This document shows positions 4,575-47,814 of a stretch of 64,000 bases of DNA, one piece after another. A program made the translations under genes and the position numbers. Source of the stretch: a virus (lineage: Duplodnaviria; Caudoviricetes); the IMG/VR virus record IMGVR_UViG_3300021426_003004, positions 6,973 to 70,972 of that record. One strand, 5' to 3'. Positions within the stretch are counted from its first letter, which is position 1. Each line of letters starts with the position of its first letter. The notes below the pieces were generated by a model, which was given only the letters and a program-made list of their open reading frames with translations, was not told the origin of the DNA and made no database searches.

Positions 4575-4594
4575 TACCGGGAAAGGAGAAGCCC

Positions 4595-29632: not shown

Positions 29633-29633
29633 C

Positions 29634-32704: not shown

Positions 32705-34070
32705 TTCTGTGTCTCCTCCTATTATATGTTCTCGGTTTGATGTTGTGCAGGACGGCGAGATTTTCATTAACCTGCCTTAAACTAATGTTCTCCATCAGTT
32801 TCTCACCGTCATCTTGTTCCTGATCAAAATTGGCGAACAGTATACGTGCTCGCAACACTTCTGGTTGTGATCCGTCAAAAGTCTCGATCAGCTGGTTGAA
32901 AGCCCCAACCTCTTGATATAGGGATGATGGCAACTCATCCTGATGAAGTCTTCCGGCGACAAGGTAGTCTTTGAAATAGAGAACACACTCTTCTGTAGGC
33001 CTCAATATTTTTTCGCTTTCCGCAGGGATTAGCTGTGCCCAATTGAACAAGTCGGAGTAGTCCCAATCCCGGTCAATCAGGTATCCCAGAGACTGAACAT
33101 GATCAAATGCGTCCTGTAATGGTTGCCGTTTCCGAAGGAAGGAATCAACCCACTGCTTGTCACGTTCTGCGGCAGGGAAAGCTATAGGTGCTTGATGCAG
33201 CATCTTTCTCTCCCGGCTTGTCAGATTGTGATAGTTTGTCGTTATGAAGTCGCGGTAGTCAGTCAGTGCTGATTCGTATAAAAACCATCCAGGTACGTAT
33301 ACCTGCTTTTCCGGATAGTATGCCTTCAGTATTTCAGCGACTAACTGGCTACAGGAAATAACAAAAGAAGAAATTTTGTCTCGGTCATACTTCGATAAAG
33401 ATTCTACGATTGCGTCAGTCCCGACTTGCGCAACGACATCCAGGACCTTCGCTTCTGTGTTATCACAGTCAAGCAGGATAGTGAAAACCTGTTTTTGTGT
33501 ACTGGAAATGAAAATGCCGATGACGGACGGTGTGTGCAGAGTACCGTTGGATTCAATGTTATACTTCGCGTTCTTACTTTCATACCAGCTACGAAATGTA
33601 TTTCCCAGTGCCTGTGCTGTCACAGAAAACGGTATCCGTTCAGAAAGCCGACGATAAGACATATTCATGACCGATACAGCTACGGCATCATAGAACCGAT
33701 AGGTTCCTTTTGAGCTAGTATCAGCAAAGGTGATCGGCGGTGTGAATACATGCCTGCATTCCGGATTGGTGCAGCGGTACTTGCTGAATACGAAGGTTAG
33801 TTCGTCAAAGATATATTTCGCATCACCCAGAGGGATCGCATCATTATATATGTGCGTTTTTGATTCTTTGCGTTCGATATTCTTCTGATGACAGAGGGGG
33901 CACTCATTCGGTTCAACCGCCAGGCATGCAACAAAGTGGTTCTCGTCGCCGGTTCCGGATGCTACCCGCAGTTCGGGGAGACGAAGCTCCTGAGTGCGAG
34001 CGTCGTCAAACTGGTCAATCTTGCGCTTTCTACCCAACAGCCTCACCGCCTTTCCCTCTGCGGGGTGCAA
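32691..34070 (-). CDS. ISL3-family transposase homologue with Zn finger and HTH kept but DDE residues lost
   Basis: CPLC..C..C; IGIFI in place of IxxDE, VISC in place of xDM, YPEKQVYVPGWF in place of FPxAxIxxDxFH, terminal RARI; ORF unbroken; stop overlaps hsdM start. Confidence 0.7.
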   Translation of the reverse strand: MHPAEGKAVRLLGRKRKIDQFDDARTQELRLPELRVASGTGDENHFVACLAVEPNECPLCHQKNIERKESKTHIYNDAIPLGDAKYIFDELTFVFSKYRCTNPECRHVFTPPITFADTSSKGTYRFYDAVAVSVMNMSYRRLSERIPFSVTAQALGNTFRSWYESKNAKYNIESNGTLHTPSVIGIFISSTQKQVFTILLDCDNTEAKVLDVVAQVGTDAIVESLSKYDRDKISSFVISCSQLVAEILKAYYPEKQVYVPGWFLYESALTDYRDFITTNYHNLTSRERKMLHQAPIAFPAAERDKQWVDSFLRKRQPLQDAFDHVQSLGYLIDRDWDYSDLFNWAQLIPAESEKILRPTEECVLYFKDYLVAGRLHQDELPSSLYQEVGAFNQLIETFDGSQPEVLRARILFANFDQEQDDGEKLMENISLRQVNENLAVLHNIKPRTYNRRRHRNVNQ

Positions 34071-35062: not shown

Positions 35063-35752
35063 ATGAAAATTAACGAAAATTATATCGTATTCCCCGACGG
35101 AACAGATGAATCCGCAAACTTTCGCGGTGAAACTTTCACTACTGACAGCGGCGAAACCATGTATTTCGCACCGCTCAGAGTTCAGACAGACGATGACCTG
35201 AAGGCCTTCGGTGTTGGAAAGGAAGCCCGCTGGACGCTGCCTTTCGGAAAAAGCTCGGTGAAATACAAGGTTCTGTATTTCCTGACGCCGAGAGAGGAGC
35301 TGGCTGAGGAATTTTGGGAAAAAATCAACACCCAGCATTCGAAGGACAATCGGAAGCGCAGGTGTATGATTCCCGGAAAGCTGAAGCCGCTGATCGTTTG
35401 CCCGGACTGCAATTCATGTGCCCACTGTCCGTATCCGGAATACAGGGACAAGCACGAAGCCCGGGAGATCAGCTACAACGACAAGCTCAACGCCCAGAAG
35501 ATCACACCCAGAGAAAGCCCGGAAATCCGGAAGCTGGAACTGACGTGGATGATCCAAGGCGCTTGCCGGAAGATGGATGAGCAGAATCCGCTGTTTGCGA
35601 AGGCGATCATCCTGAAGGAGTACAACGGTTATACGGTTCCTGAAATTGCCCAGATGCTTCACTGCACCGAATACGACGTTCGGTATTACTTGCGTCGGGC
35701 GGTGGAAATCGGGAAAGAATTCAAGCGGGAGTACTACCGTCGGGACGATTAA
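35063..35752 (+). CDS. Sigma-70 region 4-like transcription factor with Cys4 motif
   Basis: RCMIPG..CPDCNSCAHC; C-terminal GYTVPEIAQMLHCTEYDVRYYLRRA HTH. Confidence 0.75.
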   Translation: MKINENYIVFPDGTDESANFRGETFTTDSGETMYFAPLRVQTDDDLKAFGVGKEARWTLPFGKSSVKYKVLYFLTPREELAEEFWEKINTQHSKDNRKRRCMIPGKLKPLIVCPDCNSCAHCPYPEYRDKHEAREISYNDKLNAQKITPRESPEIRKLELTWMIQGACRKMDEQNPLFAKAIILKEYNGYTVPEIAQMLHCTEYDVRYYLRRAVEIGKEFKREYYRRDD

Positions 35753-35760
35753 TCAAAACG

Positions 35761-35793
35761 GCGGCACCGGAGCCATACGCTCTGGTGCCGCCA
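35761..35793. terminator. Hairpin between convergent genes
   Basis: GGCGGCACCGGAGC-cata-CGCTCTGGTGCCGCC. Confidence 0.65.
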
Positions 35794-35807
35794 GTAACAG
35801 CGATTTA

Positions 35808-36356
35808 TTATTTCAGCTTCAGTCCGTCTTTGAAGGCGTTTCCGACGATTTCCCCAACAACCCGATATGCATTGAAGGACGGATCAAAGATAATCGGTTT
35901 CAGTTTGCCCAGATCTACTTTCCCGTCTGTCAGAATGCTTTCATCCGCCTGCGACGCGACGATTTCTCCGATGACGTACCCGGTTTCAGGGTCCCAGGAC
36001 TTGACTTTGCACTCCAGTGTCAAAGGATACTCCTCGATGATCGGTGCGTTCACGTGCTGGCTCTTGTGGACATGGCACCCAGCTTTTTCAATTTTGTTTA
36101 CCTTTTTGCCGGTCTCTACACCGAAGTAGTCGGAAATCAGCATGGTATCTACTGTGCCATAGGCAACAGTGAAAGCGCCGGTCTTCTCAAAGTTATCGGT
36201 AGTCTTATGCTTGCTCAACATTATAGTGATTTCATTCATGTCGCTCTGCATGGCCCATGCAGCGTTCATGGCATTCGGTACGCCGTTCTCATCATATGTG
36301 CCGATAATGAATACGGCTTCCGGAGTGATGACTGACTTGTTTCCTGCGAATTCCAT
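35808..36356 (-). CDS. Flavin reductase-like FMN-binding protein
   Basis: PEAVFIIGTYDENGVPNAMNAAW, HKTTDN, APIIEEYPLTLECKV, GEIV. Confidence 0.9.
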   Translation of the reverse strand: MEFAGNKSVITPEAVFIIGTYDENGVPNAMNAAWAMQSDMNEITIMLSKHKTTDNFEKTGAFTVAYGTVDTMLISDYFGVETGKKVNKIEKAGCHVHKSQHVNAPIIEEYPLTLECKVKSWDPETGYVIGEIVASQADESILTDGKVDLGKLKPIIFDPSFNAYRVVGEIVGNAFKDGLKLK

Positions 36357-36622
36357 AAGGTGTAACCTCCTTCTGTCATGCGAGCCTGAGCTCGTCCAGG
36401 GTGTAGCGGATCACTTCGTCAACGGAATCCTCCTCATCCTGCGCTGTCAGCTTGGAGAGCCAAGGATGGGATTCCTCCCATGTGGGTTCTGTTGCTGCGG
36501 GGGTGGTTGTCTCCTCATTCATTGGTCGTTTGGCTCCTTCTGTGCTGGTCTAAACCGCTACAGATTGTAGCCGCCAACGGGAGAAAATACAATATCCATT
36601 TTGGTTCTTTTGCTGTCTGTTT

Positions 36623-37897
36623 TCAGGGCATAATATGACGGAAAAGCTGATATACGATCTTTTTCACTTCTGGATCAGCAAAACCGGCATACCGGAACCG
36701 CATGGCATACAGCAAATAAGGGATGATGGCAAAGCAGAGGATTGTCTCGCTGTCAAAGGTAATCTTGGCATCCCCATGAATAATTTCATTACGTACTTTC
36801 TTAATCCGTTCTGCGACCTTTGGTATGTCATAGGTTATTTTATTATACGCGAAGAGTTCCTTAGCTACTTCGCTGATGCAAGGGTCATGATCAGTAAGCG
36901 CGGTTTCCAGCTTCAGCCGTAGCTCTGTTTGTTGCTTCTTGGCAGGGACCCCCTGCAGATATATCTGCTTGTATTCCCATTCGAATGCGCTAGAAAGAAG
37001 CAGGATTCTGCTGGCGGTCATCCGCCGGGAATCTACGCTGCTCTCTGGAATGTGCCACGTATAGATTGTGTTGTCAGATAGCCCTTGCAGGACGCTTTCG
37101 ACTCCGTCTGCTATAAGTTCGATCGGAATCAAAAAATGAAACTTGGTATTCTTATTGTTCTCTGCATGGATTTCGTTCAGCCATGGTGCATCGAAGATTC
37201 CGCTGGAGAAGCGACGTCCTTTATCTGTTTCAGTGTGGATTGTGACATTCCGGACGTTAACATTCTGCCTGTAGCAGAGATACTGAACAAACGCTTTTCC
37301 AATCCTTACGAGTTTCGTTATGATCTCAAAATCCTCAGTTTGCTTGAAGGAGAAGTGCAATACGCTCTGAATTGTTAACGGGTTATCGTCGTGATTGAAA
37401 TGCTGGGCATAATAGCAAACGGCAGAGACATCCACTCCATCACAGGAAAAATGCCAGATTCTGCTTGAATGGTTTTTGCCTACTGAAACTGCGTTGCTGT
37501 GTTCTTCATCAGGTTTGAAATCATAAGAATATGCTTGCCGCACAGGGAAAATGTAATTCAATTCGTCAATCTCAAAGGAGAGTGCGCAGATCCCGGGCTG
37601 GTTGTAATATTGCTTTTGGTATTCGATGAATTGTTGTACTGTCAGGATTTGCTCGTTGTTCCGAAAACTTATATGCCGAACATCAATGAAGGCAATTCGA
37701 TGCCCGTCAGGGAAGCAAGACCCCCAGATGACAGGGATTGTATTGCCATCCAGTATAGCTTTATAAAAATCACCTGTTGGAGTCATTGGCATTGCAGGGT
37801 CAACCGTGCGTTTTTCCCAGATTACCAGTTCATAATCACTAAAGCTGAACAGATACTCTTTTTCCTGATAATTCAGGAAGCCGTTAATCGTTTCCAT
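36623..37897 (-). CDS. ApeA-like HEPN-domain protein (predicted anti-phage RNase)
   Basis: 424 aa; beta-rich N-terminus; LLLSSAFEWEY helix and RNEIIH (RxxxxH) motif near the C-terminus. Confidence 0.7.
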   Translation of the reverse strand: METINGFLNYQEKEYLFSFSDYELVIWEKRTVDPAMPMTPTGDFYKAILDGNTIPVIWGSCFPDGHRIAFIDVRHISFRNNEQILTVQQFIEYQKQYYNQPGICALSFEIDELNYIFPVRQAYSYDFKPDEEHSNAVSVGKNHSSRIWHFSCDGVDVSAVCYYAQHFNHDDNPLTIQSVLHFSFKQTEDFEIITKLVRIGKAFVQYLCYRQNVNVRNVTIHTETDKGRRFSSGIFDAPWLNEIHAENNKNTKFHFLIPIELIADGVESVLQGLSDNTIYTWHIPESSVDSRRMTASRILLLSSAFEWEYKQIYLQGVPAKKQQTELRLKLETALTDHDPCISEVAKELFAYNKITYDIPKVAERIKKVRNEIIHGDAKITFDSETILCFAIIPYLLYAMRFRYAGFADPEVKKIVYQLFRHIMP

Positions 37898-37911
37898 TCT
37901 TTACGTCCTCC

Positions 37912-39291
37912 TTAAGGGGAAGGTTCAGCGTCCATGATGACGATATATCCTTCTGAAAACTCGCGGAAAGTCTGGTTAACATCGTCAACAACATCATGCA
38001 GTTCTTCGATAAGCACGCCTTCGACATACCGCCGCCGAAGCTCGGGTTTCTCAATCAGAACCCACTTCAGTTGAGAATAAGAATACTTCGCAAACGCGAT
38101 CCACTGTGGGTAATTTATGGCCATCGGATTCTTGGTGAAAAGCACCTTCCCGGCGTTAACTGCTGTTGCCGCAGTGTGGCCGATGAAAAGCATGGTGGCC
38201 AGTTTTGGATGCTTTTCCCTATTCAGCGAGATCGGAATCGAATCTTTTATTGCGTTTCCTTCCTTGATGCGCTTTATGGCATACCCGATCCGGACAATCA
38301 CTTCGGAGATCATGACAGGGATGGACATGGAGCAGAAATGAATAAAATCATAGCCCTCGTAATACATTCCCTGCACGATTTCCGCGATTGTCTGATGCTC
38401 ATCTCCGATATCGCCGAACTGGAATAGATTGAATAGCGCCATGAGGGGTGCCGGTAGCCCCATGTCGGTGTTGATATCGGTTTTCAGATGAAGGAATTGT
38501 TTGGCTATTGCTGCAAACAGGTTTGTTTCTCTGCGATCGGCATACCCCTCCACAACTTGGACGACCAGCTTGCCCTTTTTGTCTATCGTTGTCATGGTGC
38601 CTTTCATAATATCAAGGACGCCAACTATGAATCCAAGCAGTGGATCATGACCAAGTGAAAGCAGACGATGGTAATAAGCGGACAAGCCTTCGACATGTTC
38701 TTGCGTGTGCCGGTTGTCTTGAGCGTCATAAGGCGTCTTACTTTCATGCCTGACCGCCAGCTTATCCATTTCTTCCTTGGGATATTTCTTTTCGAAGTGT
38801 TCTCGTATGTAATCAGCCAGCTTTCCAGCTTTTAGTCCGCCGGGAGTCTTCTTCGGTATGCCAACGAGGAGGATGTCCATTGCTGCGCTGAGAAGACCGG
38901 CAACGACGCTGATGGTAACGTCAATAGCATCAAGCCTATGAACCATATCGTATTCACGGTTCAGTTGCCTGATGGCGAGAGTGTTCTCCGTCAATTCGTC
39001 GGCTGTGAACAGATCCTCCAGTTCGGTATGGGCATAGCAAGCCTGCTCTGCTTCTCTGCAGAGTTCTGCCCAGGAAGGGATGATCATAACCGGTTTCTCA
39101 GACGGAACCGCGATTTCCACCTTTTGCGGAGTGTACCCCAGCGATCGGAGCAGATCTTCCGATTCAGAGATCGATTTATCTACCTCAGCCGTATCCGGAA
39201 AGTGGATTTCCTTCAGCCGGTCGTCCTGATGCTTCAGCACGTCGTTAATCTGCTGTTCGGTTTCAGTATAACGATATTTTCCCATGCTCAT
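37912..39291 (-). CDS. Hypothetical 459-aa protein with YHRLLSLGHDP motif and hydrophobic segments
   Basis: 4-nt overlap with the upstream gene; hydrophobic stretches ISVVAGLLSAAMDILLV and PLLGFIVGVLDI. Confidence 0.8.
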   Translation of the reverse strand: MSMGKYRYTETEQQINDVLKHQDDRLKEIHFPDTAEVDKSISESEDLLRSLGYTPQKVEIAVPSEKPVMIIPSWAELCREAEQACYAHTELEDLFTADELTENTLAIRQLNREYDMVHRLDAIDVTISVVAGLLSAAMDILLVGIPKKTPGGLKAGKLADYIREHFEKKYPKEEMDKLAVRHESKTPYDAQDNRHTQEHVEGLSAYYHRLLSLGHDPLLGFIVGVLDIMKGTMTTIDKKGKLVVQVVEGYADRRETNLFAAIAKQFLHLKTDINTDMGLPAPLMALFNLFQFGDIGDEHQTIAEIVQGMYYEGYDFIHFCSMSIPVMISEVIVRIGYAIKRIKEGNAIKDSIPISLNREKHPKLATMLFIGHTAATAVNAGKVLFTKNPMAINYPQWIAFAKYSYSQLKWVLIEKPELRRRYVEGVLIEELHDVVDDVNQTFREFSEGYIVIMDAEPSP

Positions 39292-40667
39292 TTCCCCAGG
39301 TCTGCTTTCAGGTCATGGATGGCTCTTTGAAGTAAAACATTCAGGCTCTGCAGGTAGTCGATACGTTCCTTTGACGCATCGGCTTCTTCCTTCAGGGCTC
39401 TGATAATTGCCTCGTGTTTTTTGATGGCTTCCTTATACAACCGCTCCTTCTCTTGCTGGAACCTTTGGTTCCTAATGTGCGAAGCAATGCCATAACCTGC
39501 GGCACCAAGTGCAGCAACTGGGGCGGCCAGAACAAAGACTCCTGCTGCCATTCCTCCACCGACAAGAGCTCCAGCTGCCGCCAATGCGGAGGTAATTCCT
39601 GCTGCAGAAAGCCCAACAACGCCTAGCCCATACAAGGCGGCAAAGGAACCAACCCCACCAAGTCCAGCACCAATAACTGCTCCAAGGACATCGGCTATTG
39701 GACTGTCAGCAATTACTCTGTTCTTATCTTCAACAGCAACAGCAGCTTCATTCACGACATTCACTACGTGCTGGAGTGATTCGGTGTTCTTGAAATTGAT
39801 CTCCTTTTTTGAAGATTCTTTTTTATTCTCTCGTTTTACTGTGGAACTCTTTGGCTCTTTGGGACGGAACCCTTTATCTTCAACGATGCCATATTTTTCC
39901 TCGAAGTCCGTAACGATCTGAATCTGATCTGCGTCGAGATACTGTAAAGCCGTTTCTCTGATCTCCGGGGGTATCCCATAGAACGCTTCAGCAATACTGC
40001 CTGCCATAGCGGCAATTGTATCGCTATCGCCGCCAATGGAGATGGCGTTACGGATTGCATCCTCAAAAGAATCTGACTCGAGGAATGCCTGTATTGCCTG
40101 AGGTACGCTTCCCTGGCATGACACATCAAAGCCGTACTTGGCCCGGATAGAGTGAAGGGTAAAGCTCAGCGGATAGTAGTTCTCTTCGATATGCTTCTTT
40201 ATTTCTTCCTTTTTTGCTCCATTCCGTGCCAGATACACTGCAGCAGTGATGGCGCGGGCACCTTTCATTCCTTCAGGGTGATTATGGGTCACTGCCGTAA
40301 CCTTGTCTGACAGGCGGAGGGCGTTTTCTAAGGATGCACCTGCCCATCCACAGGGGGATACTCTCATCCCGGCACCATTGCCCCAGCTGTTATATGGATG
40401 CGGGTCCGAAGAATGAATCCAAGCCAGAAAGCGTCCGCCATATCCGTATGGATATCTTCTCCCCAGGTCTCTCATGGAAATCACAGCGTTTGCGGGCAAT
40501 TGGGACCAATTGTTGCCGCACTTCAGTATTCCCTGCGCGATTGCCAACGTCATGGTGCTGTCGTCGGTTGGTCTGCAGCCCTCTGCAAAAAGCTCAAACG
40601 ATTTGTCCTTGTGATTATCGTGCTCAAATCGTGAACCTACGATATCGCCTATAATTGCACCTAACAC
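39288..40667 (-). CDS. ADP-ribosylglycohydrolase (DraG/ARH) fused to a glycine-zipper TM plus coiled-coil domain
   Basis: GAIIGDIVG, PTDDS, SWGNGAGMR, THNHPEG, GGDSDTIAAMAG; C-terminal GAGLGGVG..AAAGALVGGGMAAG and a charged coil. Confidence 0.88.
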   Translation of the reverse strand: MLGAIIGDIVGSRFEHDNHKDKSFELFAEGCRPTDDSTMTLAIAQGILKCGNNWSQLPANAVISMRDLGRRYPYGYGGRFLAWIHSSDPHPYNSWGNGAGMRVSPCGWAGASLENALRLSDKVTAVTHNHPEGMKGARAITAAVYLARNGAKKEEIKKHIEENYYPLSFTLHSIRAKYGFDVSCQGSVPQAIQAFLESDSFEDAIRNAISIGGDSDTIAAMAGSIAEAFYGIPPEIRETALQYLDADQIQIVTDFEEKYGIVEDKGFRPKEPKSSTVKRENKKESSKKEINFKNTESLQHVVNVVNEAAVAVEDKNRVIADSPIADVLGAVIGAGLGGVGSFAALYGLGVVGLSAAGITSALAAAGALVGGGMAAGVFVLAAPVAALGAAGYGIASHIRNQRFQQEKERLYKEAIKKHEAIIRALKEEADASKERIDYLQSLNVLLQRAIHDLKADLGK

Positions 40668-40669
40668 AG

Positions 40670-42649
40670 TTAATTCTCACCTCCAGCGTTCAGTAGAGCT
40701 AGGAGGCCATTTGCCTCTTCAATGATCTTTTTGATATCGAATGGAGACATGCTGAGGAATTTATGTGGCTCGCCCCACGTAGCGGCTATGGTTTCTGCAG
40801 CGGGTTGAAGCAGATGATAAATTGTATTCTGTGTTTCGGAATCAGAAATGCTCTTAGCGGCATGATAGATGCTCTGGAATGCAGCAGGTTCAGCAAAAAG
40901 GTTTTTCTGGGTTTCAACGGCAAGCTGTGTCATTTCCGCATTGTCCGATCTCAGGGTATAGCACAGCAAAGGCAAAGCAGCACAATGGGACACCTTCAGA
41001 TTGTGCCGTTCCTCTGGTGAATAGCTGGACTGGCCGTGCCACTCTCCATCGTCCTCAAAGTGAAGGTTTGTTAACAGGCAACGCAGAAGCTTGGCTGATT
41101 CATCTGTTTCATTTTTAAGTATGCTGATAATTGCTGCCATTTGCTTCTCGTCCGGGACAGCATGCAATTCCACCAACAGATAGTACAATCCATCGCAGTC
41201 CTGGTGTTTAACGCACTCGTTTATGCTATGGGTCAGGAAGATCTGATACGCACGCTCGTCTTTGAACAGCACACCGACTTTGTAGAACTCAGTCCATGCG
41301 GATGAGTAGCAAGACGTGTTTTCCAAGTGGAAATAGGCCCAATGCGGTATGCAAGGATACCCTTGCTCAACATAGATCTTCATCAGCTTTATATCGCCGG
41401 TGCTCAGAAGCCATCTGACGGTATCCGCATATTGAAAATCCTTTTGATTAAGCTGAGTGAGAATCTTTTTTACGAGAGAAATTTCACCGGACTTATAAAG
41501 GACATCAAGTGCAGTGTCATGCCATGAAACAGTATCCTTATACTTTAGTAGTTTCTTCATGGTTTCCGGGTCAAGGTTTTTAGCTGTTTCATCAATGATA
41601 AAGAACGGTGTGCCAGCATTAAGAAGCTTGAAGGCATAATCTGGCCGATTGGCTCTGAATGCCTGACCAACGAGGTACTCGTTCCAGAAACTTTTAGGAT
41701 TAAAGCCAGATTTCAAGCATAATGCAAAGACCGAGTCAAGGCCGCTGTCAATGACGAAAGACATGATCCCCTGATTCTTTCCATTGACCATAACTGCACG
41801 GTTGACATCAGCGCCGTTCTTCAGCAGGTATTCTGCCATTGCGATATCTTTTCGGCTGATTGCATTAAACAGAGCTTGAACCAGATCATCGGGTTGCAGC
41901 GAAGAACGGGGAATATGACGCAATTCGCGCTGTACCGTTTTAATATCACCATTTTCAGCAGCAAGATTGATAGTCTGAAGTCGGTTGCTCTTTTCTGCAC
42001 CTGTTAGACGACTCTGAGCTTCTGTTACCAGCTGATCGTAATGATAATAGGTTGTGGCATCAACCATAGAGAACAACGCCAATAATGGTTCGGCATCTTC
42101 TGCTTTCAAATACCGTGGATTTGCTTGCCAGAATTCCTTACGGGTCAGGATATCAAGATAGGCATGCGAGATATCAATAGCTTTTGCAATTCGCGCACAG
42201 GAGATGGAGGACTCGTTTCCTTTCTTATCAGCGAAGGTGATGGCTCTTTTCGTAACCTTTGTGACCTTCCATCCGCCCGGCAACTTTTCGCCATCAGCTT
42301 TTTTGATTAGCTGATCCAGTTCTTCTTCTGCTGTGCTGATTGTGCAGAGCGAGAGGGCGCTGGCGAGTTTCTTTTCATCGAAAGGCGTCAGTTCAGCATC
42401 CCGGGTTACCGGTTTTCCGTGGCCCTGTGTAAGGTCGTACACTTTGTAGTACTTCATATCATTTACACGGCCATTTTCGTCAAGGAATACCTGCAGATTC
42501 ACGCGAACGTTGGTATTGTAATTGTCATCATATGGGTAATACCCGTTTCCGGAGAAATACTCCGAAAAATGCTCGTTCGTCTTCCTATAATAAAATGGCG
42601 CGAACCAGCCATCTCCCATTTCAAAAGAAGCCAAGTCCAACTTTGCCAT
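40670..42649 (-). CDS. Ankyrin-repeat-containing protein (659 aa)
   Basis: LAAENGDIKTV, ALFNAISRKDIAMAEYLLKNGADVN and further degenerate repeats. Confidence 0.7.
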   Translation of the reverse strand: MAKLDLASFEMGDGWFAPFYYRKTNEHFSEYFSGNGYYPYDDNYNTNVRVNLQVFLDENGRVNDMKYYKVYDLTQGHGKPVTRDAELTPFDEKKLASALSLCTISTAEEELDQLIKKADGEKLPGGWKVTKVTKRAITFADKKGNESSISCARIAKAIDISHAYLDILTRKEFWQANPRYLKAEDAEPLLALFSMVDATTYYHYDQLVTEAQSRLTGAEKSNRLQTINLAAENGDIKTVQRELRHIPRSSLQPDDLVQALFNAISRKDIAMAEYLLKNGADVNRAVMVNGKNQGIMSFVIDSGLDSVFALCLKSGFNPKSFWNEYLVGQAFRANRPDYAFKLLNAGTPFFIIDETAKNLDPETMKKLLKYKDTVSWHDTALDVLYKSGEISLVKKILTQLNQKDFQYADTVRWLLSTGDIKLMKIYVEQGYPCIPHWAYFHLENTSCYSSAWTEFYKVGVLFKDERAYQIFLTHSINECVKHQDCDGLYYLLVELHAVPDEKQMAAIISILKNETDESAKLLRCLLTNLHFEDDGEWHGQSSYSPEERHNLKVSHCAALPLLCYTLRSDNAEMTQLAVETQKNLFAEPAAFQSIYHAAKSISDSETQNTIYHLLQPAAETIAATWGEPHKFLSMSPFDIKKIIEEANGLLALLNAGGEN

Positions 42650-42683
42650 GGTTTGACCCTGCCTTTCTCGTCTGTTTACTACG

Positions 42684-42989
42684 TTAGCTTTTTGGCCCTA
42701 ACTCAGCACGCTGGTTGCTGGCAACATAAGTGGCGATCTGCCGGACATGAGTGTTCAACGTCTTCAGGTCGTCATTCCAGCAGGATTCCTCAACCATAGC
42801 CATAGCATTGCCCATCAGGTAGGATGCAGCTGTGTCTGCTATGACATGGAAGTCCTCCAGCTGTTGTGCCAGTGTGTTTTCCTGATTCTTACCGTAGGTC
42901 TTGTTGATATAAGCCTGGATCTCGTTTGCAGCCAGATCATATATCTTCTCAGCGACGGCAGTCAGTTCTGCTTGATGCTTCTTGGTCAT
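42684..42989 (-). CDS. Hypothetical helical protein (101 aa)
   Basis: RBS GGGAG; 4-nt overlap with the SLOG gene. Confidence 0.65.
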   Translation of the reverse strand: MTKKHQAELTAVAEKIYDLAANEIQAYINKTYGKNQENTLAQQLEDFHVIADTAASYLMGNAMAMVEESCWNDDLKTLNTHVRQIATYVASNQRAELGPKS

Positions 42990-43564
42990 TCTGCGATCTC
43001 CCTTATGCTTTCTGCGATTTCGCCAGGTTCCTCTTCTTTTGACTTCCGTTTTCTTTTGGGTTTTGGTTCATAGTTTGGGTTGTTCGTGATAACTTCAATA
43101 CCTTTACCAACAGCATAGTCAATTGTGTTCTTTGTGCCGCCGGGAGCTCCGTTGAAATATGCAATCACACGGTTGCTGTGATTGACCATCCATTCATTCC
43201 TCTGCTGGAATACTCCCTTGTGATAGTGATTGCAGACGGGTACAACCAGATCGGCATTCTTCAGGAGATCACTGTATTGTACCTGCCAGTCAAGGCTCCA
43301 TCTGTTTGAGAAACCAGGCCACGGGGTTGCTGCGATCAAGTGTAGAGACTGGTTGTCAGCTTTTCGCTGCAGAACAATCTGCCCGGCCCAAATATCAACA
43401 CCCATCGCGCAGCCGGAAATGAAGGTTGTATACCCGGCGGCAATGGCGCTGTCGATCTGCTCCGATAGCCATTTTTTCACATTTTCTTCCGATTCATCCA
43501 GCTTCTCTGGGCGATGGCCGGAGAAGCAGCATCGATGAAGACGCTTTTCCTCTTCCGTTGCCAA
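42986..43564 (-). CDS. SLOG-superfamily (YspA/DUF1273-like) protein
   Basis: CCFSGHRP, FISGCAMGVD, QRNEWMVNHS, GGTKNTIDYA. Confidence 0.88.
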   Translation of the reverse strand: MATEEEKRLHRCCFSGHRPEKLDESEENVKKWLSEQIDSAIAAGYTTFISGCAMGVDIWAGQIVLQRKADNQSLHLIAATPWPGFSNRWSLDWQVQYSDLLKNADLVVPVCNHYHKGVFQQRNEWMVNHSNRVIAYFNGAPGGTKNTIDYAVGKGIEVITNNPNYEPKPKRKRKSKEEEPGEIAESIREIAE

Positions 43565-43611
43565 GGGTCAAACCTCCTTCCTCAATCGAGTTAACGGGCT
43601 CAAGTGCCCAT

Positions 43612-43640
43612 ATTATAAGGTATTTTGTCCTTTTTGTCAC
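43612..43640 (-). promoter_or_regulatory. SigmaA-like promoter for the SLOG-to-HEPN operon
   Basis: Minus strand GTGACA, 17-nt spacer, TATAAT. Confidence 0.65.
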
Positions 43641-43710
43641 GTTATCCACAGGGACCACATGAGCCCCAAAACGCAAAAAAGATGCGCCGCCGAAGCGACG
43701 CATAAGAAGT

Positions 43711-45699
43711 CTACTGCTTCTGATAGAAAGGGCATTGGTAACCATCGGCACGAAGATCAATCCCGGGGAGCCAGGGAGGGGTTCGGCCCATTTGCTCACA
43801 GATAGCATCTAAGGAGACCTCCGGGCTGCACTCGATGATCAGTTCGTCGTGAACGTGGCCGACGATCGAACAATAGGACAAGGTCTTCATGGCATAGGCC
43901 AGAATGTCCCGGGAGATTGCCTGGACTATGTTTTCGACGAATTTCGGGCCGTAAGATTCAATCCGGCTCCACTTTTTGTTAGCATCGATCCCCATGTAGG
44001 TGACGGATTCGCCGCCGAATTGGTTCTCACCGATTCGCGGTTTCACATAAGCCAGCCGCCTGCCGGAGGGCAAGTTGATGAACAGCATCCCGTTTCTGGC
44101 GATAAAGGATACGTTGCCGACTCTCGTTTCAGCGTGTTTCTGGATGGTTTCCTTTACGGCTTCATCCACGTCCCACCAGTACCGAACGATGTGCGGATTC
44201 GACTCCCGCCACATGGTGACCAGCGGTTGAAGCTCGTCTTCAGAAAGGCCCATCTCGATGGCTCCCATGGCTTTCAAGGCACCGACGGAGCCGCCGTAAC
44301 CCAAAGCCAACTCTGCGATTTTGCCTTTCTGGCGGAGATGAGAGTTCTGACCGTGCTTCTCAACCGGCACCTTGAACATCTGGCTGGCGGAGGCACAGTA
44401 AATGTCGCCGCCGGTGCGGAAAACTTCTGCTCGCCATTTCTCACCGGCAAGGTGGCTGAGCACCCGAGCTTCGATCGCGGAAAAGTCTGAAACGATGAAC
44501 TTATACCCTGGCCGGGGAACGAAGGCAGTTCTGATCAATTCGGAAAGGACACCCGGCACAGAATCATACAGCCTATCCAGCATGTCAAAGTCACCCTGCT
44601 TCACGAGATCCCGTGCCTGCTCCAGGTCGGGCATGTGGTTTTGCGGCAAGTTCTGCAACTGAATCAGCCGTCCAGCCCAGCGGCCAGTTCGATTCGCGCC
44701 GTAGAATTGATAAAGCCCGTGGCAGCGGCCATCGAAACATACACAGTTCTGCATAGCCTCATATTTCCGGACAGAGCTTTTTGCCAGCTGCAGCCGGAGC
44801 TCCAGCACCTCTGTAAGATCTTCCGGCGCTGTCTGAATCAGCGCCTTTACATCCTTCTTTCCGAGGCTTTCGGTTTCCAATCCGTTCTCGGCGAGATAAT
44901 CCTTCATCTGCATGACGGAGTTCGGATTCGACAAGCCAGTGATCTGCTGCAGGCGGGCGGTCAGGCTGCATTTGGATATCTCGTCAATCCGGAGCGCCTG
45001 CGATACCATTTCCTGATCTACCATGATCCCCCGGTCGTTGATCTGCTGATCCAAATGGTATTCTTCCCAGAGAGAATCCGGAACCGGATACTTGCTGAGC
45101 CGTTCCTGAATCTGCAGTTCCACCTGAACGTCGCGGGCGTTGTATTTCTTGAACAATTCCCATTTTTCCGGAGCATGATACGGAAGGTTCCACGTGCGTC
45201 CGCCATTCGCCTTCGTCGGCTTGCAGGGACAGCAAAAATATTTGATCAGTTCTTTGCCTTCCTTTAGCTTCTGTTCTTCAAAACCAAGCACAGCACCAAC
45301 ACGATCTAGCCCCAGAGGCAGACCGTTGTATGCCGCCCAAACCAGGGTGCACTTCCATCCAGCAGGATCCAGGTATTCCTGAACCGGGTCACCTTCAGTA
45401 CCGTAGGATTTGAAGTGCTCTGGGTGATAACGCTTCAGCCATTCGGAAAGACAGATCCTTTCGAAGGAAGCGTTATAAGCAAATTTCGTCACATTGTTAT
45501 CCGATAACGCAGCCAGAATATCGTCCGGGATGGTATCGTTATTGGCAAGATCATATACTTCGACTGGGCCGTGATTTACGGACACTCCGAACAAAAGCAC
45601 ATCAAAATCAGGATCTTCGGCGTAGCGGTACAATCCGGCCTTTGCGATATCAGCACTGGACCGGGTTTCGAGATCGATGCTGAGCGTTTTTATGTCCAT
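43711..45699 (-). CDS. Phage family A DNA polymerase (3'-5' exonuclease + polymerase)
   Basis: SIDLET, YNASFER, YNARD, DFSAIEAR (motif A), RQKGKIAELALGYG (B), HVHDE (C). Confidence 0.95.
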   Translation of the reverse strand: MDIKTLSIDLETRSSADIAKAGLYRYAEDPDFDVLLFGVSVNHGPVEVYDLANNDTIPDDILAALSDNNVTKFAYNASFERICLSEWLKRYHPEHFKSYGTEGDPVQEYLDPAGWKCTLVWAAYNGLPLGLDRVGAVLGFEEQKLKEGKELIKYFCCPCKPTKANGGRTWNLPYHAPEKWELFKKYNARDVQVELQIQERLSKYPVPDSLWEEYHLDQQINDRGIMVDQEMVSQALRIDEISKCSLTARLQQITGLSNPNSVMQMKDYLAENGLETESLGKKDVKALIQTAPEDLTEVLELRLQLAKSSVRKYEAMQNCVCFDGRCHGLYQFYGANRTGRWAGRLIQLQNLPQNHMPDLEQARDLVKQGDFDMLDRLYDSVPGVLSELIRTAFVPRPGYKFIVSDFSAIEARVLSHLAGEKWRAEVFRTGGDIYCASASQMFKVPVEKHGQNSHLRQKGKIAELALGYGGSVGALKAMGAIEMGLSEDELQPLVTMWRESNPHIVRYWWDVDEAVKETIQKHAETRVGNVSFIARNGMLFINLPSGRRLAYVKPRIGENQFGGESVTYMGIDANKKWSRIESYGPKFVENIVQAISRDILAYAMKTLSYCSIVGHVHDELIIECSPEVSLDAICEQMGRTPPWLPGIDLRADGYQCPFYQKQ

Positions 45700-45729
45700 G
45701 CGATCAACTCCTCACAAACAAAAATAAAC

Positions 45730-45755
45730 GGGGTGACGGTGTTACCCGCCACCCC
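45730..45755 (-). terminator. Hairpin/terminator between DUF2815 and pol
   Basis: GGGGTGACGG..CCGCCACCCC, with a T-rich tail on the minus strand. Confidence 0.5.
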
Positions 45756-45765
45756 AGTGAACCGA

Positions 45766-46338
45766 TCAGGACAGGAAGTCTTCGTCGTCATCGTCGTCGG
45801 CGAAGTCATCCTCAGGCCTGCTGTGTCCGCCCAGGGGCGTACCGTCAGCCAGCTTCTGGATGTTGTTCAGGCCGCAGGCGATGCCGCGATTGCCGTTGCT
45901 GTTGAACGCGTAAAAATTGATCGATGCCCGCCCGATGATGCCGGAGTACAGCTCCGAGGTGTCCAGGATGTCCTGCTTGTTGGCATCGACGACACCGGGC
46001 TTCGTGGTCGAATTTGCATTCACGAAGTAGCTGTTCTTGTAGGCTTCGTCGCCTTTGCGGTCCTTATCACCGTCGCGGAGCGGCGTCTTCAGGTCTTCCA
46101 GCGCCGGGACAACCTTGCTGTTACCCTTCAGCTTGGACTGGCCTTCCTCGTAGGCGGCCTTGATGGCAACCTTGATCTTCTCGATGGTGACCGTGTCGCT
46201 CTTGGGAATGATGATGCTCACCGAATACTTCGGGGTGCCGCCGCCCAGCGGGGTCTTGGGTTCGTTGACATTCAGGTAGGACATGATGCATTTTTTGCCC
46301 GTGACAACTTTGCACGGATTCTTGGCGATAGTGTTCAT
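45766..46338 (-). CDS. DUF2815 phage single-stranded DNA-binding protein (T7 gp2.5-like)
   Basis: KYSVSIIIPK, PLRDGD, FYAFNSNGNRGIACGLNNIQK, acidic tail DDFADDDDDEDFLS. Confidence 0.9.
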   Translation of the reverse strand: MNTIAKNPCKVVTGKKCIMSYLNVNEPKTPLGGGTPKYSVSIIIPKSDTVTIEKIKVAIKAAYEEGQSKLKGNSKVVPALEDLKTPLRDGDKDRKGDEAYKNSYFVNANSTTKPGVVDANKQDILDTSELYSGIIGRASINFYAFNSNGNRGIACGLNNIQKLADGTPLGGHSRPEDDFADDDDDEDFLS

Positions 46339-46343
46339 AATAC

Positions 46344-47483
46344 TTATTCTCCTTCATTAAAATCGTTTGCTGCGGAGCTGAACTCGGGACGCTTATCGGT
46401 CACCGGTACCAGCACCGGCTTTCCCTGGGGCTTAACAATCAGCCCCTGTAACAACTCGTCAAACCGCTTTTTACCTAGCTGCTTGGTCATTGCGGTTATC
46501 CCCAGCAGCTTATGTTCGTAAGGCTCGTATCCGGCTTCCGATACGATCTTGGCAACCTCCGCTTCATTGCGGTACTTCCGATTGCTTTTGCCCTCGACCA
46601 GTTTGAAACCGGGGTATTTCGTGCCAGACAGCGCCTGCTCAAGGGCAAACGCTTTGATGTCTTCGGCCCAGGATACCAGGGAATCAATCTGGGGCAGGAT
46701 CTCCGCTATTTCAGCCGTGTCCAACGTGGGCGGGTCAGCAAAATCGTATGCTGCCATCGCCATGTTGTAGTTGGCTCTTTCGCGGCAGACCGCCTTGGCT
46801 TTGCAGAACGTGCAGTGATCACCGGCACAGAAGTCGCCGTCGCCGACATAGGCGAGCTTGGCGATCGGGGCCAGGGTTCCATCTGCCCAGTTCAGCAGGT
46901 CTTCCTTCGTCATTTCGAATGTGTCCACGTTGTCCCTGCGCGGCTGGAAGATCGAGAGCCTGATACGATGAATGTCGTACAGGTCACCGAACGTGTCCAA
47001 GGCACCTAAGGCATAGCACTTCAGCTGACTGTTCCCGGCTCCATCCTCACCAGATGCGCTGACCAGCACGCCAACTCCATATTTGAAATCAACGATGTGC
47101 AGCAGATCATCGGCGACGATGACACAGTCTCCGGTTCCGAAACCGTGCTCGACCCATTTGGAAAAATCCAATGTCTGTTCAACACAGACCAGCGGGTCAG
47201 GGCAGAGTTCCTTTGCCTGAGCGACCTGCTCCATGACGAATGCGGTGTAGGCTTCTGCCGCCTCCTGCATTTCACCGTCATACCAGGTCAGGTCGCCTGT
47301 GGGATCGCGGGTATTCCTGCCGAGTGCTTTCTCCACCAGATACTGGCAGAGAGCGTGGGCATCCGTGCCTTGCTGTGCGTATGGGCTACCTTGATCTTCC
47401 ATCTGAGCGCACAGCTTGGCTGAAGGTGGGCATTTTAGCCATCGTTCACTGGCCGAAGCGGATAGGTATGCATGACTAGGCAT
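46344..47483 (-). CDS. DUF2800 Cas4-like PD-(D/E)XK exonuclease
   Basis: HAYLSASASERWLKCPPS, FGTGDCVIV, DFKYG, QLKCYALG, GDHCTFCKAKAVC. Confidence 0.9.
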   Translation of the reverse strand: MPSHAYLSASASERWLKCPPSAKLCAQMEDQGSPYAQQGTDAHALCQYLVEKALGRNTRDPTGDLTWYDGEMQEAAEAYTAFVMEQVAQAKELCPDPLVCVEQTLDFSKWVEHGFGTGDCVIVADDLLHIVDFKYGVGVLVSASGEDGAGNSQLKCYALGALDTFGDLYDIHRIRLSIFQPRRDNVDTFEMTKEDLLNWADGTLAPIAKLAYVGDGDFCAGDHCTFCKAKAVCRERANYNMAMAAYDFADPPTLDTAEIAEILPQIDSLVSWAEDIKAFALEQALSGTKYPGFKLVEGKSNRKYRNEAEVAKIVSEAGYEPYEHKLLGITAMTKQLGKKRFDELLQGLIVKPQGKPVLVPVTDKRPEFSSAANDFNEGE

Positions 47484-47814
47484 TACCAATCCCCTCAGCT
47501 TTCTTCACGATTTCAGCCAACTTGCCCGGATCCTTGACGTCGGAAAGCTGACTCACACCGAACTCGGCGAGAAGCGTTTTGACCTCAGCCCTGAACCCTG
47601 CCCTGGACTTCTCCGCGAGAACCGCCCGGGTCTCTTCGTAAGTGCGTGTTTCAGCGGGCGCATCTTCCGTAGGTGCCGGAGCCTGTTCGACAGTGGGTTC
47701 GTCCTGCGTGTTCTCCGGAGCCTCTGAACCTTCGAGCCGGGCGGCGAGATCCGCCACGTCAGCGCTCAGCTTCTTCAGCCCCTCAACCAGAACCGTTTTG
47801 TCTTGCTTTGTCAC
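47476..47814 (-). CDS. Conserved phage hypothetical protein preceding DUF2800
   Basis: GTG start behind AAAGGAGG; RAVLAEKSRAGFRAEVKTLLAEFG. Confidence 0.75.
   Translation of the reverse strand: MTKQDKTVLVEGLKKLSADVADLAARLEGSEAPENTQDEPTVEQAPAPTEDAPAETRTYEETRAVLAEKSRAGFRAEVKTLLAEFGVSQLSDVKDPGKLAEIVKKAEGIGNA

What the first reader, a model, noticed from the sequence alone, without database searches (positions are those of the whole stretch)
36623..43640. Candidate new NAD/ADP-ribose-linked defence system: SLOG, small helical protein, ankyrin protein, ARH-TM fusion, HRxxxxGHDP protein, HEPN RNase
Seen: six co-oriented genes behind their own sigmaA-like promoter (43612-43640), with gaps or overlaps of -4, 34, 2, -4 and 14 nt, inserted just downstream of the phage polymerase. 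Established: SLOG domains bind nucleotide ligands (the ThsA SLOG senses an ADP-ribose-derived signal in Thoeris); ARH enzymes remove ADP-ribose; ankyrin repeats act as protein sensors; ApeA-type HEPN proteins are abortive-infection RNases; glycine-zipper TM domains are typical membrane effectors. Inference: a multi-component system in which ADP-ribosylation state or an ADP-ribose signal gates membrane and RNase effectors, protecting the lysogen from other phages. I do not recognise this combination as a named system. It may also be two or three adjacent independent modules.
Basis: partly seen in the sequence, partly recalled or inferred. Interest (0 to 1): 0.85.

Follow-up and report, generated by a model that had tools for sequence, protein, structure and literature searches.

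The report
Phage defence-cargo island, ARH-fused Bunzi variant
The six genes are real, but they are a patchwork of independent cargo genes in a variable spot of a rumen phage, not one new six-part defence system; the notable piece is a relative of the known Bunzi anti-phage pair whose membrane protein has gained an ADP-ribose-removing enzyme domain.

Summary
Observation confirmed. Six co-oriented minus-strand genes (36623-43564) sit behind a terminator and a strong promoter-like site just after the phage PolA gene.

The single six-gene system is not supported:
- The ARH-TM protein plus the 'GHDP' protein is a Bunzi-like pair. The second is a BnzB homologue (PADLOC E 1.9e-63). In 100 of 104 related loci BnzB sits just after a short (mostly 174-234 aa) membrane protein matching only the C-terminal part of the ARH-TM protein. 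None of those loci has the other four genes.
- 80 loci of the HEPN family and 53 loci with SLOG homologues lack all the other genes.
- In related phages, different restriction and Abi systems follow SLOG, so SLOG anchors a cargo hotspot.
- Near-identical phages lack ANK alone, ARH-TM to HEPN, or ANK to HEPN.

What is new is the catalytically intact ARH domain fused to the Bunzi-type membrane partner (at least 17 protein clusters). The HEPN gene belongs to an uncharacterised beta-barrel-plus-HEPN family and is not an ApeA orthologue.

This scan has already found TerB-less Bunzi-like pairs on other DNA. None of the earlier notes shown mentions the ARH-fused form on other DNA.

The parts
43682..43703 (-). 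Terminator-like hairpin directly after the PolA stop codon; it separates the replication module from the cargo cluster
   Evidence: 9-bp stem, 6 G-C pairs, followed by a T run.
43612..43640 (-). Sigma-70/SigA-like promoter match in front of the SLOG gene
   Evidence: GTGACA, 17 nt, TATAAT, 11 of 12 matches; the only strong match in 35500-44500. Consensus match only.
42986..43564 (-). YpsA-family SLOG protein (192 aa). It is a conserved phage backbone gene that anchors a variable cargo hotspot, not a component of the downstream modules
   Evidence: Pfam YpsA 6e-21. B. subtilis YpsA structure 2nx2 at E 2.6e-4. Homologues of 50-77% identity in 49 viral contigs (53 loci in all, the other four at 32-41% over partial matches), none with the other five genes. 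Different RM and Abi systems lie downstream.
42684..42989 (-). Small helical protein (101 aa), overlaps the SLOG stop by 4 nt; function unknown
   Evidence: No significant family hit. Identical copy in sister contig L106. Retained in all three indel variants.
40670..42649 (-). Ankyrin-repeat-containing protein (659 aa); a rare lineage-specific family and a separate indel cassette
   Evidence: Ank_2 1.3e-4, residues 222-284. Atlas features nearest ankyrin clusters, 0.92. Only 15 clusters among 5.8 billion proteins. A 99.7%-identical bovine-gut contig joins 40663 to 42684 with 24 other bases between, so it lacks this gene.
39888..40667 (-). ARH (ADP-ribosylglycohydrolase) domain, residues 1-260 of the 459-aa fusion protein
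   Evidence: PF03747 2.4e-34. phrog_6572 1.3e-54. Aligns to solved ARHs including the TDD and GGDSDT metal-site motifs. T34 D35 D36, G96 N97 G98, H128, H130 and D214 S215 D216 T217 are invariant in 17 fusion proteins.
39291..39813 (-). BnzA-like core, residues 285-459 of the same protein: Gly/Ala-rich hydrophobic stretch (about 324-396) plus charged coiled coil (about 398-459)
   Evidence: PADLOC BnzA 2.7e-5 over the profile's TM part, 314-409 of 544. Hydropathy. 60-74% identical to the short free-standing partner (mostly 174-234 aa) just upstream of BnzB in 100 of 104 loci.
37912..39291 (-). BnzB-family protein (459 aa), start overlaps the ARH-TM stop by 4 nt; one strong hydrophobic helix (122-147) and a conserved His/Asp-rich core
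   Evidence: PADLOC BnzB 1.9e-63, residues 10-424 against profile 46-481 of 504. At least 2511 relatives among the 8000 candidates scored. Invariant H208, G214, H215, P217, D227, H268, D272, D315, E330, R334, H372. Predicted to bind the coiled-coil tail of the upstream protein.
36623..37897 (-). Beta-barrel-plus-HEPN protein (424 aa); an independent candidate abortive-infection RNase
   Evidence: Family of 372 clusters at 50% identity. R369 invariant, N370, H374 and G375 at 90% or more. 12 of 40 relatives hit Pfam HEPN_Apea, and 39 of 40 hit no PADLOC model (one hit PDC-M08B). AF2 model pLDDT 88.9: the C-terminal part aligns with HEPN domains of AbiA, Cas13b, HepT and AbiV (Z 5.5-6.3), and the N-terminal part is beta-rich.
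36670..40643 (.). Block missing from sister phage contig L106 (deletion from about ARH codon 9 to about HEPN codon 400)
   Evidence: L106 is 96% identical over small+ANK, keeps a diverged remnant of the ARH start and the last ~25 HEPN codons, and has nothing between.

Best explanation
The cluster is a defence/cargo island in a variable hotspot of a temperate rumen phage. It lies between the PolA replication module and a type I R-M operon, and it is built from independent modules.

1. SLOG/YpsA, probably together with the small overlapping gene, belongs to the phage backbone and marks the edge of the hotspot.
2. The ankyrin gene is a separate, lineage-specific cassette of unknown role.
3. ARH-TM plus the BnzB homologue is a two-gene Bunzi-like membrane module.
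4. The HEPN gene is a stand-alone abortive-infection-type RNase of an uncharacterised family.

Proposed working of module 3 (inferred). The Gly/Ala-rich membrane protein is held through its C-terminal coiled coil by the N- and C-terminal helices of BnzB. On infection the pair disturbs the membrane and aborts the infection, as is proposed for Bunzi. The N-terminal position of the membrane partner is a swappable input domain: TerB in canonical Bunzi, absent in the common short form, and here a catalytically intact ARH. No ADP-ribosyltransferase was found among the six cluster genes. The ARH therefore most likely acts on ADP-ribose marks placed by an invading phage's transferase. It would either strip inhibitory marks from the module or couple such marks to its activation.

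Shown: gene models, homologies, conserved pairing, the fusion and its conserved catalytic residues, indel variants, and a predicted interface. Inferred: anti-phage function, membrane action, the ARH substrate, and independence of the HEPN gene.
For: - **Context.** Tail genes, a serine integrase, type I R-M, PolA/SSB/DUF2800 and primase-helicase place the cluster in a temperate phage.
- **Bunzi link.** BnzB HMM E 1.9e-63; the BnzA HMM hits the TM part at 2.7e-5.
- **Conserved pair.** A short A partner lies directly upstream of BnzB in 100 of 104 loci, with a 4- or 7-nt overlap in about 30 of them. No other conserved neighbour was found except serine recombinases and an HTH gene.
- **No co-occurrence.** SLOG, small, ANK and HEPN were not found within 10 kb in any of the 104 loci. 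No cluster partner was found in 80 HEPN-family loci or 53 SLOG loci.
- **Hotspot.** Downstream of SLOG in related phages lie type II R-M plus AbiU, type I R-M or type IIG enzymes.
- **Indel variants.** L106 lacks 36670-40643. A 99.7%-identical contig lacks only ANK, and another skips 36483-42690.
- **The fusion is real.** 17 protein clusters carry it, including a 558-aa form with 208 members, all with invariant ARH metal-site residues. Contigs of identical length (15318, 6136 and 10945 nt) carry both a fusion and a BnzB relative.
- **Predicted complex.** Tail (residues 285-459) with BnzB: score 0.63, best of 3 controls 0.00. That mark was reached by 58 of 80 solved complexes and 2 of 110 mismatched pairs. 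The runs agree in at least 76% of contacts, and the partner's pLDDT is at least 44.
- **Variable partners.** BnzB homologues pair with a TerB-type BnzA in G068, the short form in G532 and PDC-M09A in G482.
- **Precedent.** ARH systems without a cognate transferase have been proposed to act on virus-made ADP-ribose marks (Iyer et al. 2022, PMC9503650).
Against: - No experiment shows defence for this variant. A lactococcal Bunzi homologue gave no protection against the phages tested (PMC11381338).
- The BnzA match is weak and covers a low-complexity Gly/Ala-rich segment, so homology of the A partner rests mainly on conserved position.
- ARH-TM, BnzB and HEPN are present or absent together in every near-identical variant seen. 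A functional link of HEPN to the pair in this lineage is therefore not excluded.
- The BnzB fold could not be modelled (pLDDT 44), so its biochemical activity is unknown.
- The rest of the window was not scanned for ADP-ribosyltransferases.
Confidence: 0.7

Rival explanations
1. Three-gene system: in this lineage the ARH-fused Bunzi-like pair has recruited the HEPN RNase as a second effector or as its executioner. ARH-TM, BnzB and HEPN would then work as one unit, while SLOG, small and ANK are unrelated.
For: There is a 14-nt gap and the same strand. The three genes are lost together in L106 by one deletion that spans exactly this block. They are contiguous in contigs from four independent rumen/gut runs.
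Against: 100 of 104 Bunzi-like loci have no HEPN homologue within 10 kb. 80 of 80 HEPN-family loci have no BnzB, TM or ARH homologue. A single deletion removing two adjacent modules is equally likely. The co-presence is seen only in near-identical phages, so it is one evolutionary event.
Confidence: 0.15
2. Counter-defence reading: ARH, and perhaps SLOG and ANK, serve the phage against host immunity. ARH would remove ADP-ribose marks made by host systems, and SLOG would degrade cADPR-type signals. They would not protect the lysogen, and the membrane anchor would only localise the enzyme.
For: Viral YpsA-like SLOG and ARG domains have been proposed as counter-defence enzymes (PMC9503650). Close ARH homologues are common stand-alone genes, found in about 70 of 401 Bacillota genomes.
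Against: The anchor is not generic. It is the specific, conserved partner of BnzB, a protein of an experimentally supported defence system. The same hotspot carries R-M and Abi systems in related phages, which fits lysogen protection.
Confidence: 0.1
3. One reading: one six-component NAD/ADP-ribose-linked system in which SLOG senses a signal, ANK senses a protein, ARH sets the ADP-ribosylation state, and the membrane and HEPN proteins are effectors.
For: There is a single strong promoter-like site and tight spacing. Two of the six proteins (SLOG and ARH) belong to ADP-ribose-related families.
Against: No co-occurrence of any two modules was found outside this lineage in 237 related loci. SLOG precedes unrelated defence systems elsewhere. 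Natural variants lack ANK alone or the last three or four genes. Two of the genes are Bunzi-like.
Confidence: 0.04

Closest known systems
Bunzi anti-phage system (BnzA + BnzB; Millman et al. 2022, bioRxiv 10.1101/2022.05.11.491447)
   Same: A BnzB-family protein (E 1.9e-63) is encoded directly after, and overlapping, a membrane protein whose TM segment matches the BnzA profile. It is a two-gene module carried on mobile elements. The mechanism is unknown and is proposed to involve the membrane.
   Different: The membrane partner has no TerB domain, which is the feature the literature uses to describe BnzA. It carries a catalytic ARH domain at that position instead. Only about a fifth of the BnzA profile is matched.
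TerB-less short Bunzi-like pairs (a glycine-zipper protein of mostly 174-234 aa plus a ~453-aa BnzB-like protein), widespread in gut Bacillota and found repeatedly by this scan
   Same: The BnzB protein is 58-67% identical. The partner's TM and coiled-coil core is 60-74% identical. Gene order and overlap are the same.
   Different: Here, and in at least 17 related protein clusters, the short partner is extended N-terminally by an ARH domain of about 260 aa. No fused form was seen in the 104 fetched loci, the IMG/VR scan or 401 Bacillota genomes.
ApeA and other HEPN abortive-infection RNases (ApeA: bioRxiv 10.64898/2026.01.26.701840; AbiV, HepT)
   Same: A C-terminal HEPN domain with the conserved R-N-x3-H-G motif. 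Relatives hit Pfam HEPN_Apea. It is a single gene on mobile elements next to recombinases and R-M genes.
   Different: It is 424 aa with beta-rich N-terminal domains, whereas ApeA is about 580 aa with all-alpha N-terminal and Mid domains. There is no hit to the PADLOC ApeA model. No activity, ligand or oligomer is known.
YpsA (B. subtilis SLOG protein; PMC6459960) and viral YpsA-like SLOG domains (PMC9503650)
   Same: Same Pfam family and the same size; it matches the YpsA structure sequence. It is a stand-alone SLOG, as is typical of phages.
   Different: It is phage-encoded and no function has been tested. Here it is notable only as the conserved gene bordering a defence-cargo hotspot.
ARG/ARH-centred systems without a cognate transferase, predicted to counter viral ADP-ribosylation (Iyer, Burroughs, Aravind 2022, PMC9503650)
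   Same: An intact ARH with no ADP-ribosyltransferase found among the six cluster genes, which suggests action on marks made by an outside enzyme.
   Different: Those systems are built around Nudix/WYL regulators, phosphatases and chaperones in other phyla. Here the ARH is fused to a Bunzi-type membrane protein.

Membership tests
Bunzi (BnzA/BnzB) | BnzB-family protein | tested here: met
   PADLOC PDLC03834 E 1.9e-63, residues 10-424 against profile 46-481 of 504.
Bunzi (BnzA/BnzB) | BnzA carries a TerB domain | tested here: not met
   The Pfam scan at E up to 0.1 finds only PF03747 (ARH) plus two chance-level hits, and no TerB. The short partner in L005 has no Pfam domain. A TerB-region BnzA match does exist next to BnzB in G068.
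Bunzi (BnzA/BnzB) | BnzA transmembrane segment | tested here: inconclusive
   PDLC03833 E 2.7e-5 over residues 331-429 against profile 314-409 of 544. Short partners give 1.4e-7 to 2.6e-4. The segment is Gly/Ala-rich, so composition may contribute.
Bunzi (BnzA/BnzB) | Membrane partner and BnzB adjacent and co-oriented | tested here: met
   4-nt overlap in the window. Same order in 100 of 104 loci.
Bunzi (BnzA/BnzB) | Protects against phage | not testable with these tools
   Needs cloning and phage challenge.
ApeA | HEPN domain with Rx4-6H catalytic motif | tested here: met
   R369 is invariant and H374 is at 90% or more in 40 family members. The C-terminal domain aligns with HEPN structures at Z 5.5-6.3.
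ApeA | Match to the ApeA-specific models | tested here: not met
   Pfam HEPN_Apea scores 17.9 bits, below the 24.4 cutoff, although 12 of 40 relatives match it. Neither the protein nor any of 40 relatives hits a PADLOC ApeA model.
ApeA | All-alpha N-terminal and Mid domains preceding HEPN (bioRxiv 10.64898/2026.01.26.701840) | tested here: not met
   The AF2 model (pLDDT 88.9) has beta-strand domains over residues 1-240. Paper section read.
Thoeris | SLOG fused to an effector (ThsA) plus a TIR protein (ThsB) | tested here: not met
   The SLOG protein is a 192-aa stand-alone YpsA-family protein. No TIR or ThsA/ThsB hit appears among the six proteins.
ART-ARH pairs (DraT/DraG, Tre1/Tri1, DarT/DarG3-type) | Catalytic ARH domain | tested here: met
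   PF03747 2.4e-34. The metal-site motifs align with solved ARHs and are invariant in 17 fusions.
ART-ARH pairs (DraT/DraG, Tre1/Tri1, DarT/DarG3-type) | Cognate ADP-ribosyltransferase encoded next to it | tested here: not met
   None of the six cluster proteins hits an ART family in Pfam, NCBIfam, PHROGs or PADLOC. The rest of the window was not scanned.

The most novel reading that the evidence does not exclude
The ARH domain makes a Bunzi-type membrane module respond to ADP-ribosylation. The module would be switched on, or kept switched on, when an invading phage's ADP-ribosyltransferase marks it or a host target. In this phage lineage the adjacent beta-barrel-HEPN RNase would act as a coupled second effector. 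This would be the first defined trigger logic for any Bunzi-family system, and an example of immunity that reads a viral ADP-ribose mark.
Probability: 0.12. Interest if true: 0.75.

Novelty: new variant of a known kind. Interest (0 to 1): 0.45.

Why it matters
Bunzi is a validated anti-phage system with no known mechanism. This locus shows three things about its core:
- The conserved unit is BnzB plus a small glycine-rich membrane protein.
- The two are predicted to dock through a coiled-coil tail.
- The N-terminal position of the membrane partner is a swappable input slot (TerB, nothing, or ARH).

An intact ARH in that slot gives a concrete, testable idea for what such modules sense or resist, namely ADP-ribosylation by phage enzymes. 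The locus also flags two further leads: a sizeable uncharacterised HEPN family, and a SLOG-anchored hotspot that could be mined for defence genes in rumen and gut phages. For the scan, the result corrects an over-reading: tight co-oriented spacing behind one promoter in a phage hotspot does not make one system.

Tried and rejected
The contigs of the closest relatives (P0008, P0009, P0127-P0148, P0247, P0397-P0409) could not be fetched. Pairing in the fused clade therefore rests on matching contig lengths only.
- **Megablast** of the 7.2-kb cluster against 50,697 phage records: no match.
- **Viral-contig scans.** The scan with the HEPN protein found no relative. The 40-sequence HEPN alignment was too diverse to scan with. 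Two scans with the ANK protein and family found only L106.
- **Search for fused forms.** No full-length ARH-TM fusion was found in IMG/VR or in 401 Bacillota genomes using P0136. This is 'not found in those searched', not absence.
- **BnzB structure.** The AF2 model was poor (pLDDT 44), so no fold search was made. The profile against PDB sequences found nothing. The ESM Atlas returned only unnamed clusters.
- **HEPN structure.** Foldseek against PDB gave nothing at E up to 0.001. The family profile against PDB sequences gave only chance-level hits.
- **The genome search** could not draw relatives for a virus record.
- **Terminator after HEPN.** No terminator-like site was found downstream of HEPN. 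The 266-nt spacer folds only slightly better than shuffles (z -2.35).
- **Identities considered and rejected.** ShosA for SLOG: the PADLOC hit of 2e-5 covers only the shared DprA/SLOG-like part. PDC-M72A for ANK: 1.3e-3, over the ankyrin region only.


Full report
**Observation**

The window is part of an IMG/VR virus record of 70,972 bases, estimated 71% complete. Directly after the PolA stop there is a terminator-like hairpin (43703-43682). It is followed by the only strong promoter-like match in the region (43640-43612, 11 of 12 positions).

The surroundings are those of a temperate phage:
- tail genes at 258-6847;
- a large serine integrase at 23452-25026;
- a type I R-M operon at 26205-32767;
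- PolA, an Enc34-type SSB and DUF2800 at 43711-47489;
- primase-helicase and SNF2 helicase beyond 52400.

Logan contigs place near-identical DNA in bovine, sheep and rumen metagenomes from at least 12 studies.

**What the six proteins are**

| Gene | Coordinates | Identity | Key evidence |
|---|---|---|---|
| SLOG | 42986-43564 | YpsA-family SLOG | PF06908 6e-21; YpsA structure 2nx2 E 2.6e-4 |
| Small | 42684-42989 | Unknown, 101 aa | No significant hit in four libraries |
| ANK | 40670-42649 | Ankyrin-repeat-containing, weak | Ank_2 1.3e-4, below cutoff; Atlas features 0.92; only 15 clusters in 5.8 billion proteins |
| ARH-TM | 39288-40667 | ARH domain (1-260), linker, hydrophobic stretch, coiled coil | PF03747 2.4e-34; TDD and GGDSDT motifs align with solved ARHs |
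| BnzB-like | 37912-39291 | BnzB homologue of Bunzi | PADLOC E 1.9e-63 over nearly its whole length |
| HEPN | 36623-37897 | Beta-barrel-plus-HEPN | Family of 372 clusters; Rx4H motif |

The ARH-TM protein has a ~72-residue Gly/Ala-rich hydrophobic stretch followed by a ~60-residue charged coiled coil. The membrane part of this protein gives a weak hit to the transmembrane part of the BnzA profile (2.7e-5). Millman et al. describe Bunzi as a two-gene system whose BnzA has a TerB domain and transmembrane helices. Later papers still give no mechanism.

The HEPN protein belongs to a family of 372 clusters at 50% identity. R369 is invariant, and N370, H374 and G375 are conserved in at least 90% of members. 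Twelve of 40 relatives match Pfam HEPN_Apea. The only PADLOC hit among the 40 was one relative matching PDC-M08B.

A confident model (pLDDT 88.9, pTM 0.90) shows beta-rich N-terminal domains and a C-terminal helical domain. The C-terminal domain aligns with the HEPN domains of AbiA, Cas13b, HepT and AbiV at Z 5.5-6.3. These Z values are modest. They count only together with the motif. Canonical ApeA is larger and all-alpha before its HEPN domain, so this protein is not an ApeA orthologue.

**Do the genes belong together?**

I fetched 104 loci that encode relatives of the BnzB-like protein: 80 from species genomes and 24 from viral contigs.
- In 100 of them a short protein (mostly 174-234 aa) sits directly upstream. 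It corresponds only to residues ~287-459 of the ARH-TM protein. In about 30 loci it overlaps BnzB by 4 or 7 nt.
- None of the 104 has a homologue of SLOG, the small protein, ANK or HEPN within 10 kb.
- Clustering all flanking ORFs found no other conserved partner. The only recurrent neighbours were serine recombinases and an HTH gene.

In the other direction:
- 80 metagenome loci of the HEPN family contain no BnzB, TM-core, ARH, ANK or SLOG homologue. Their commonest neighbour is again a serine recombinase.
- 53 viral contigs with SLOG homologues (49 of them at 50-77% identity) contain none of the other five genes.
- Downstream of SLOG those phages carry a type II R-M plus AbiU, other type II enzymes, type I R-M or a type IIG enzyme.

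SLOG is therefore the conserved gene at the edge of a defence-cargo hotspot, not a sensor dedicated to these neighbours.

**Natural variants of this phage**

- Contig L106 is 96% identical over small+ANK. It jumps from about codon 9 of the ARH gene to the last ~25 codons of the HEPN gene. This is a deletion scar that removes ARH-TM, BnzB and HEPN.
- A 99.7%-identical bovine-gut contig joins 40663 to 42684 with 24 other bases between. It lacks only ANK and places the small gene right before ARH-TM.
- Another contig skips 36483-42690, that is, ANK through HEPN.

The cluster is thus a mosaic. ARH-TM, BnzB and HEPN are always present or absent together in these few close variants. That leaves room for a lineage-specific link between the HEPN gene and the Bunzi-like pair.

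**The ARH fusion**

Full-length fusions exist in six clusters of 75-97% identity. More distant forms of 528-578 aa (including P0145, 529 aa, 53-54% identity) carry a longer linker. One of these, P0136, has 208 member sequences. Its tail is 91% identical to a free-standing short partner in Enterococcus camelliae.

In 17 fusion proteins the ARH metal-site residues are invariant, which indicates an active enzyme. Contigs of identical length carry a fusion and a BnzB relative (15318 and 6136 nt; 10945 nt for a long-linker form). This is suggestive but indirect.

Close ARH homologues are otherwise common stand-alone genes, found in about 70 of 401 Bacillota genomes. Some are fused to HsdM methylases.

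BnzB homologues pair with different membrane partners: a TerB-type BnzA in G068, the short form in G532 and a PDC-M09A protein in G482.

**Predicted contact**

The tail of the fusion (residues 285-459) was folded with the BnzB-like protein.
- Score 0.63; best of 3 controls 0.00.
- That mark was reached by 58 of 80 solved complexes and 2 of 110 mismatched pairs.
- The runs agree in at least 76% of contacts. The partner's pLDDT is at least 44, and its own fold is uncertain.
- The interface joins the coiled coil (about 398-453) to the N-terminal (5-111) and C-terminal (416-446) helices of BnzB.

This supports binding but does not show it.

**Mechanism**

Most likely (about 0.7) this is a cargo island of independent modules. 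For the Bunzi-like module I infer the following:
- a membrane-acting abortive or exclusion function that protects the lysogen;
- the membrane partner held by BnzB through the coiled coil;
- an exchangeable N-terminal input domain on the membrane partner.

No transferase was found among the six cluster genes. The ARH therefore probably acts on ADP-ribose marks made by an incoming phage's enzyme. This is the logic Iyer et al. proposed for other ARH systems. The HEPN protein most likely acts alone as an infection-triggered RNase.

Rivals are a three-gene ARH-TM/BnzB/HEPN unit (about 0.15), a counter-defence role for ARH and SLOG (about 0.10), and the six-gene system (about 0.04).

**Novelty and limits**

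The pair belongs with Bunzi by its BnzB protein but fails the TerB criterion, so I call it a Bunzi-like variant rather than a member. This scan has already reported TerB-less Bunzi-like pairs on other DNA several times. The ARH-fused form was noted only for this stretch. The preprints and papers I read describe BnzA only as TerB-bearing.

Noticed in passing
L124:8511-14433; L127:4795-7659; L129:9989-12358; L139:8561-11941; L143:11266-14208; L144:8922-11255: In phages with a SLOG homologue (50-59% identity), the genes right after SLOG are different defence systems: type II MTase plus REase plus AbiU, type II REases, type I HsdR, or a type IIG enzyme. A conserved SLOG gene appears to mark a defence-cargo hotspot in these gut/rumen phages. 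Two large ORFs at this position in L137 (629 and 517 aa) hit nothing in PADLOC.
   Followed up: partly
P0207, P0212, P0214, P0221, P0223; L049:5410-7533: The same ARH domain (56-63% identity) is also found fused to HsdM-type N6-methylase domains. In L049 an ARH match lies directly before an HsdM match, 3 kb from a Bunzi-like pair. ARH seems to be a promiscuous add-on to defence proteins in Bacillota mobile elements.
   Followed up: no
L015:9619-10014 and about 45 of 100 Bunzi-like loci (A-to-B gap of 230-510 nt): About half of the short Bunzi-like loci carry an extra ORF of about 115-131 aa between the membrane partner and BnzB. In G001 it is 46% identical to the coiled-coil tail of the partner, so it is a paralogue of that tail. 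The window's ARH-fused form lacks it.
   Followed up: partly
L267:3416-5952 (genome G482): The best BnzB match among 301 Bacillota genomes (E 6.5e-108) overlaps by 4 nt a downstream 366-aa protein that matches the PADLOC candidate PDC-M09A (4e-73). A PDC-S32 protein lies upstream. BnzB-family proteins therefore occur in more than one named or candidate system.
   Followed up: partly
window 35808-36356 (-) and 35063-35752 (+): A flavin-reductase-like gene (PF01613, 1.5e-15) follows the HEPN gene after 266 nt on the same strand. It is absent from L106. A gene with a sigma-70 region 4 match lies on the other strand.
   Followed up: no
L002:8600-9106 and 21 other Bunzi-like loci: An XRE-type HTH_3 protein (about 169 aa) lies directly upstream of the short membrane partner in 22 of 104 loci. 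It is a possible regulator of the pair. It is not present in the window.
   Followed up: no
L183:10001-19094; L219; L182; L212: Distant HEPN-family members (about 25% identity) also sit within a few kb of PolA/SSB/DUF2800 modules that are 47-67% identical to the window's. The same kind of element therefore carries this HEPN family at the same general place, in other arrangements.
   Followed up: no
P0149-P0197: Streptococcus suis genomes encode many 614-701-aa proteins with this ARH domain (52-54% identity) followed by a long Gly/His-rich repeat region (weak SBSN_GxHH_rpt match). Their function is unknown.
   Followed up: no
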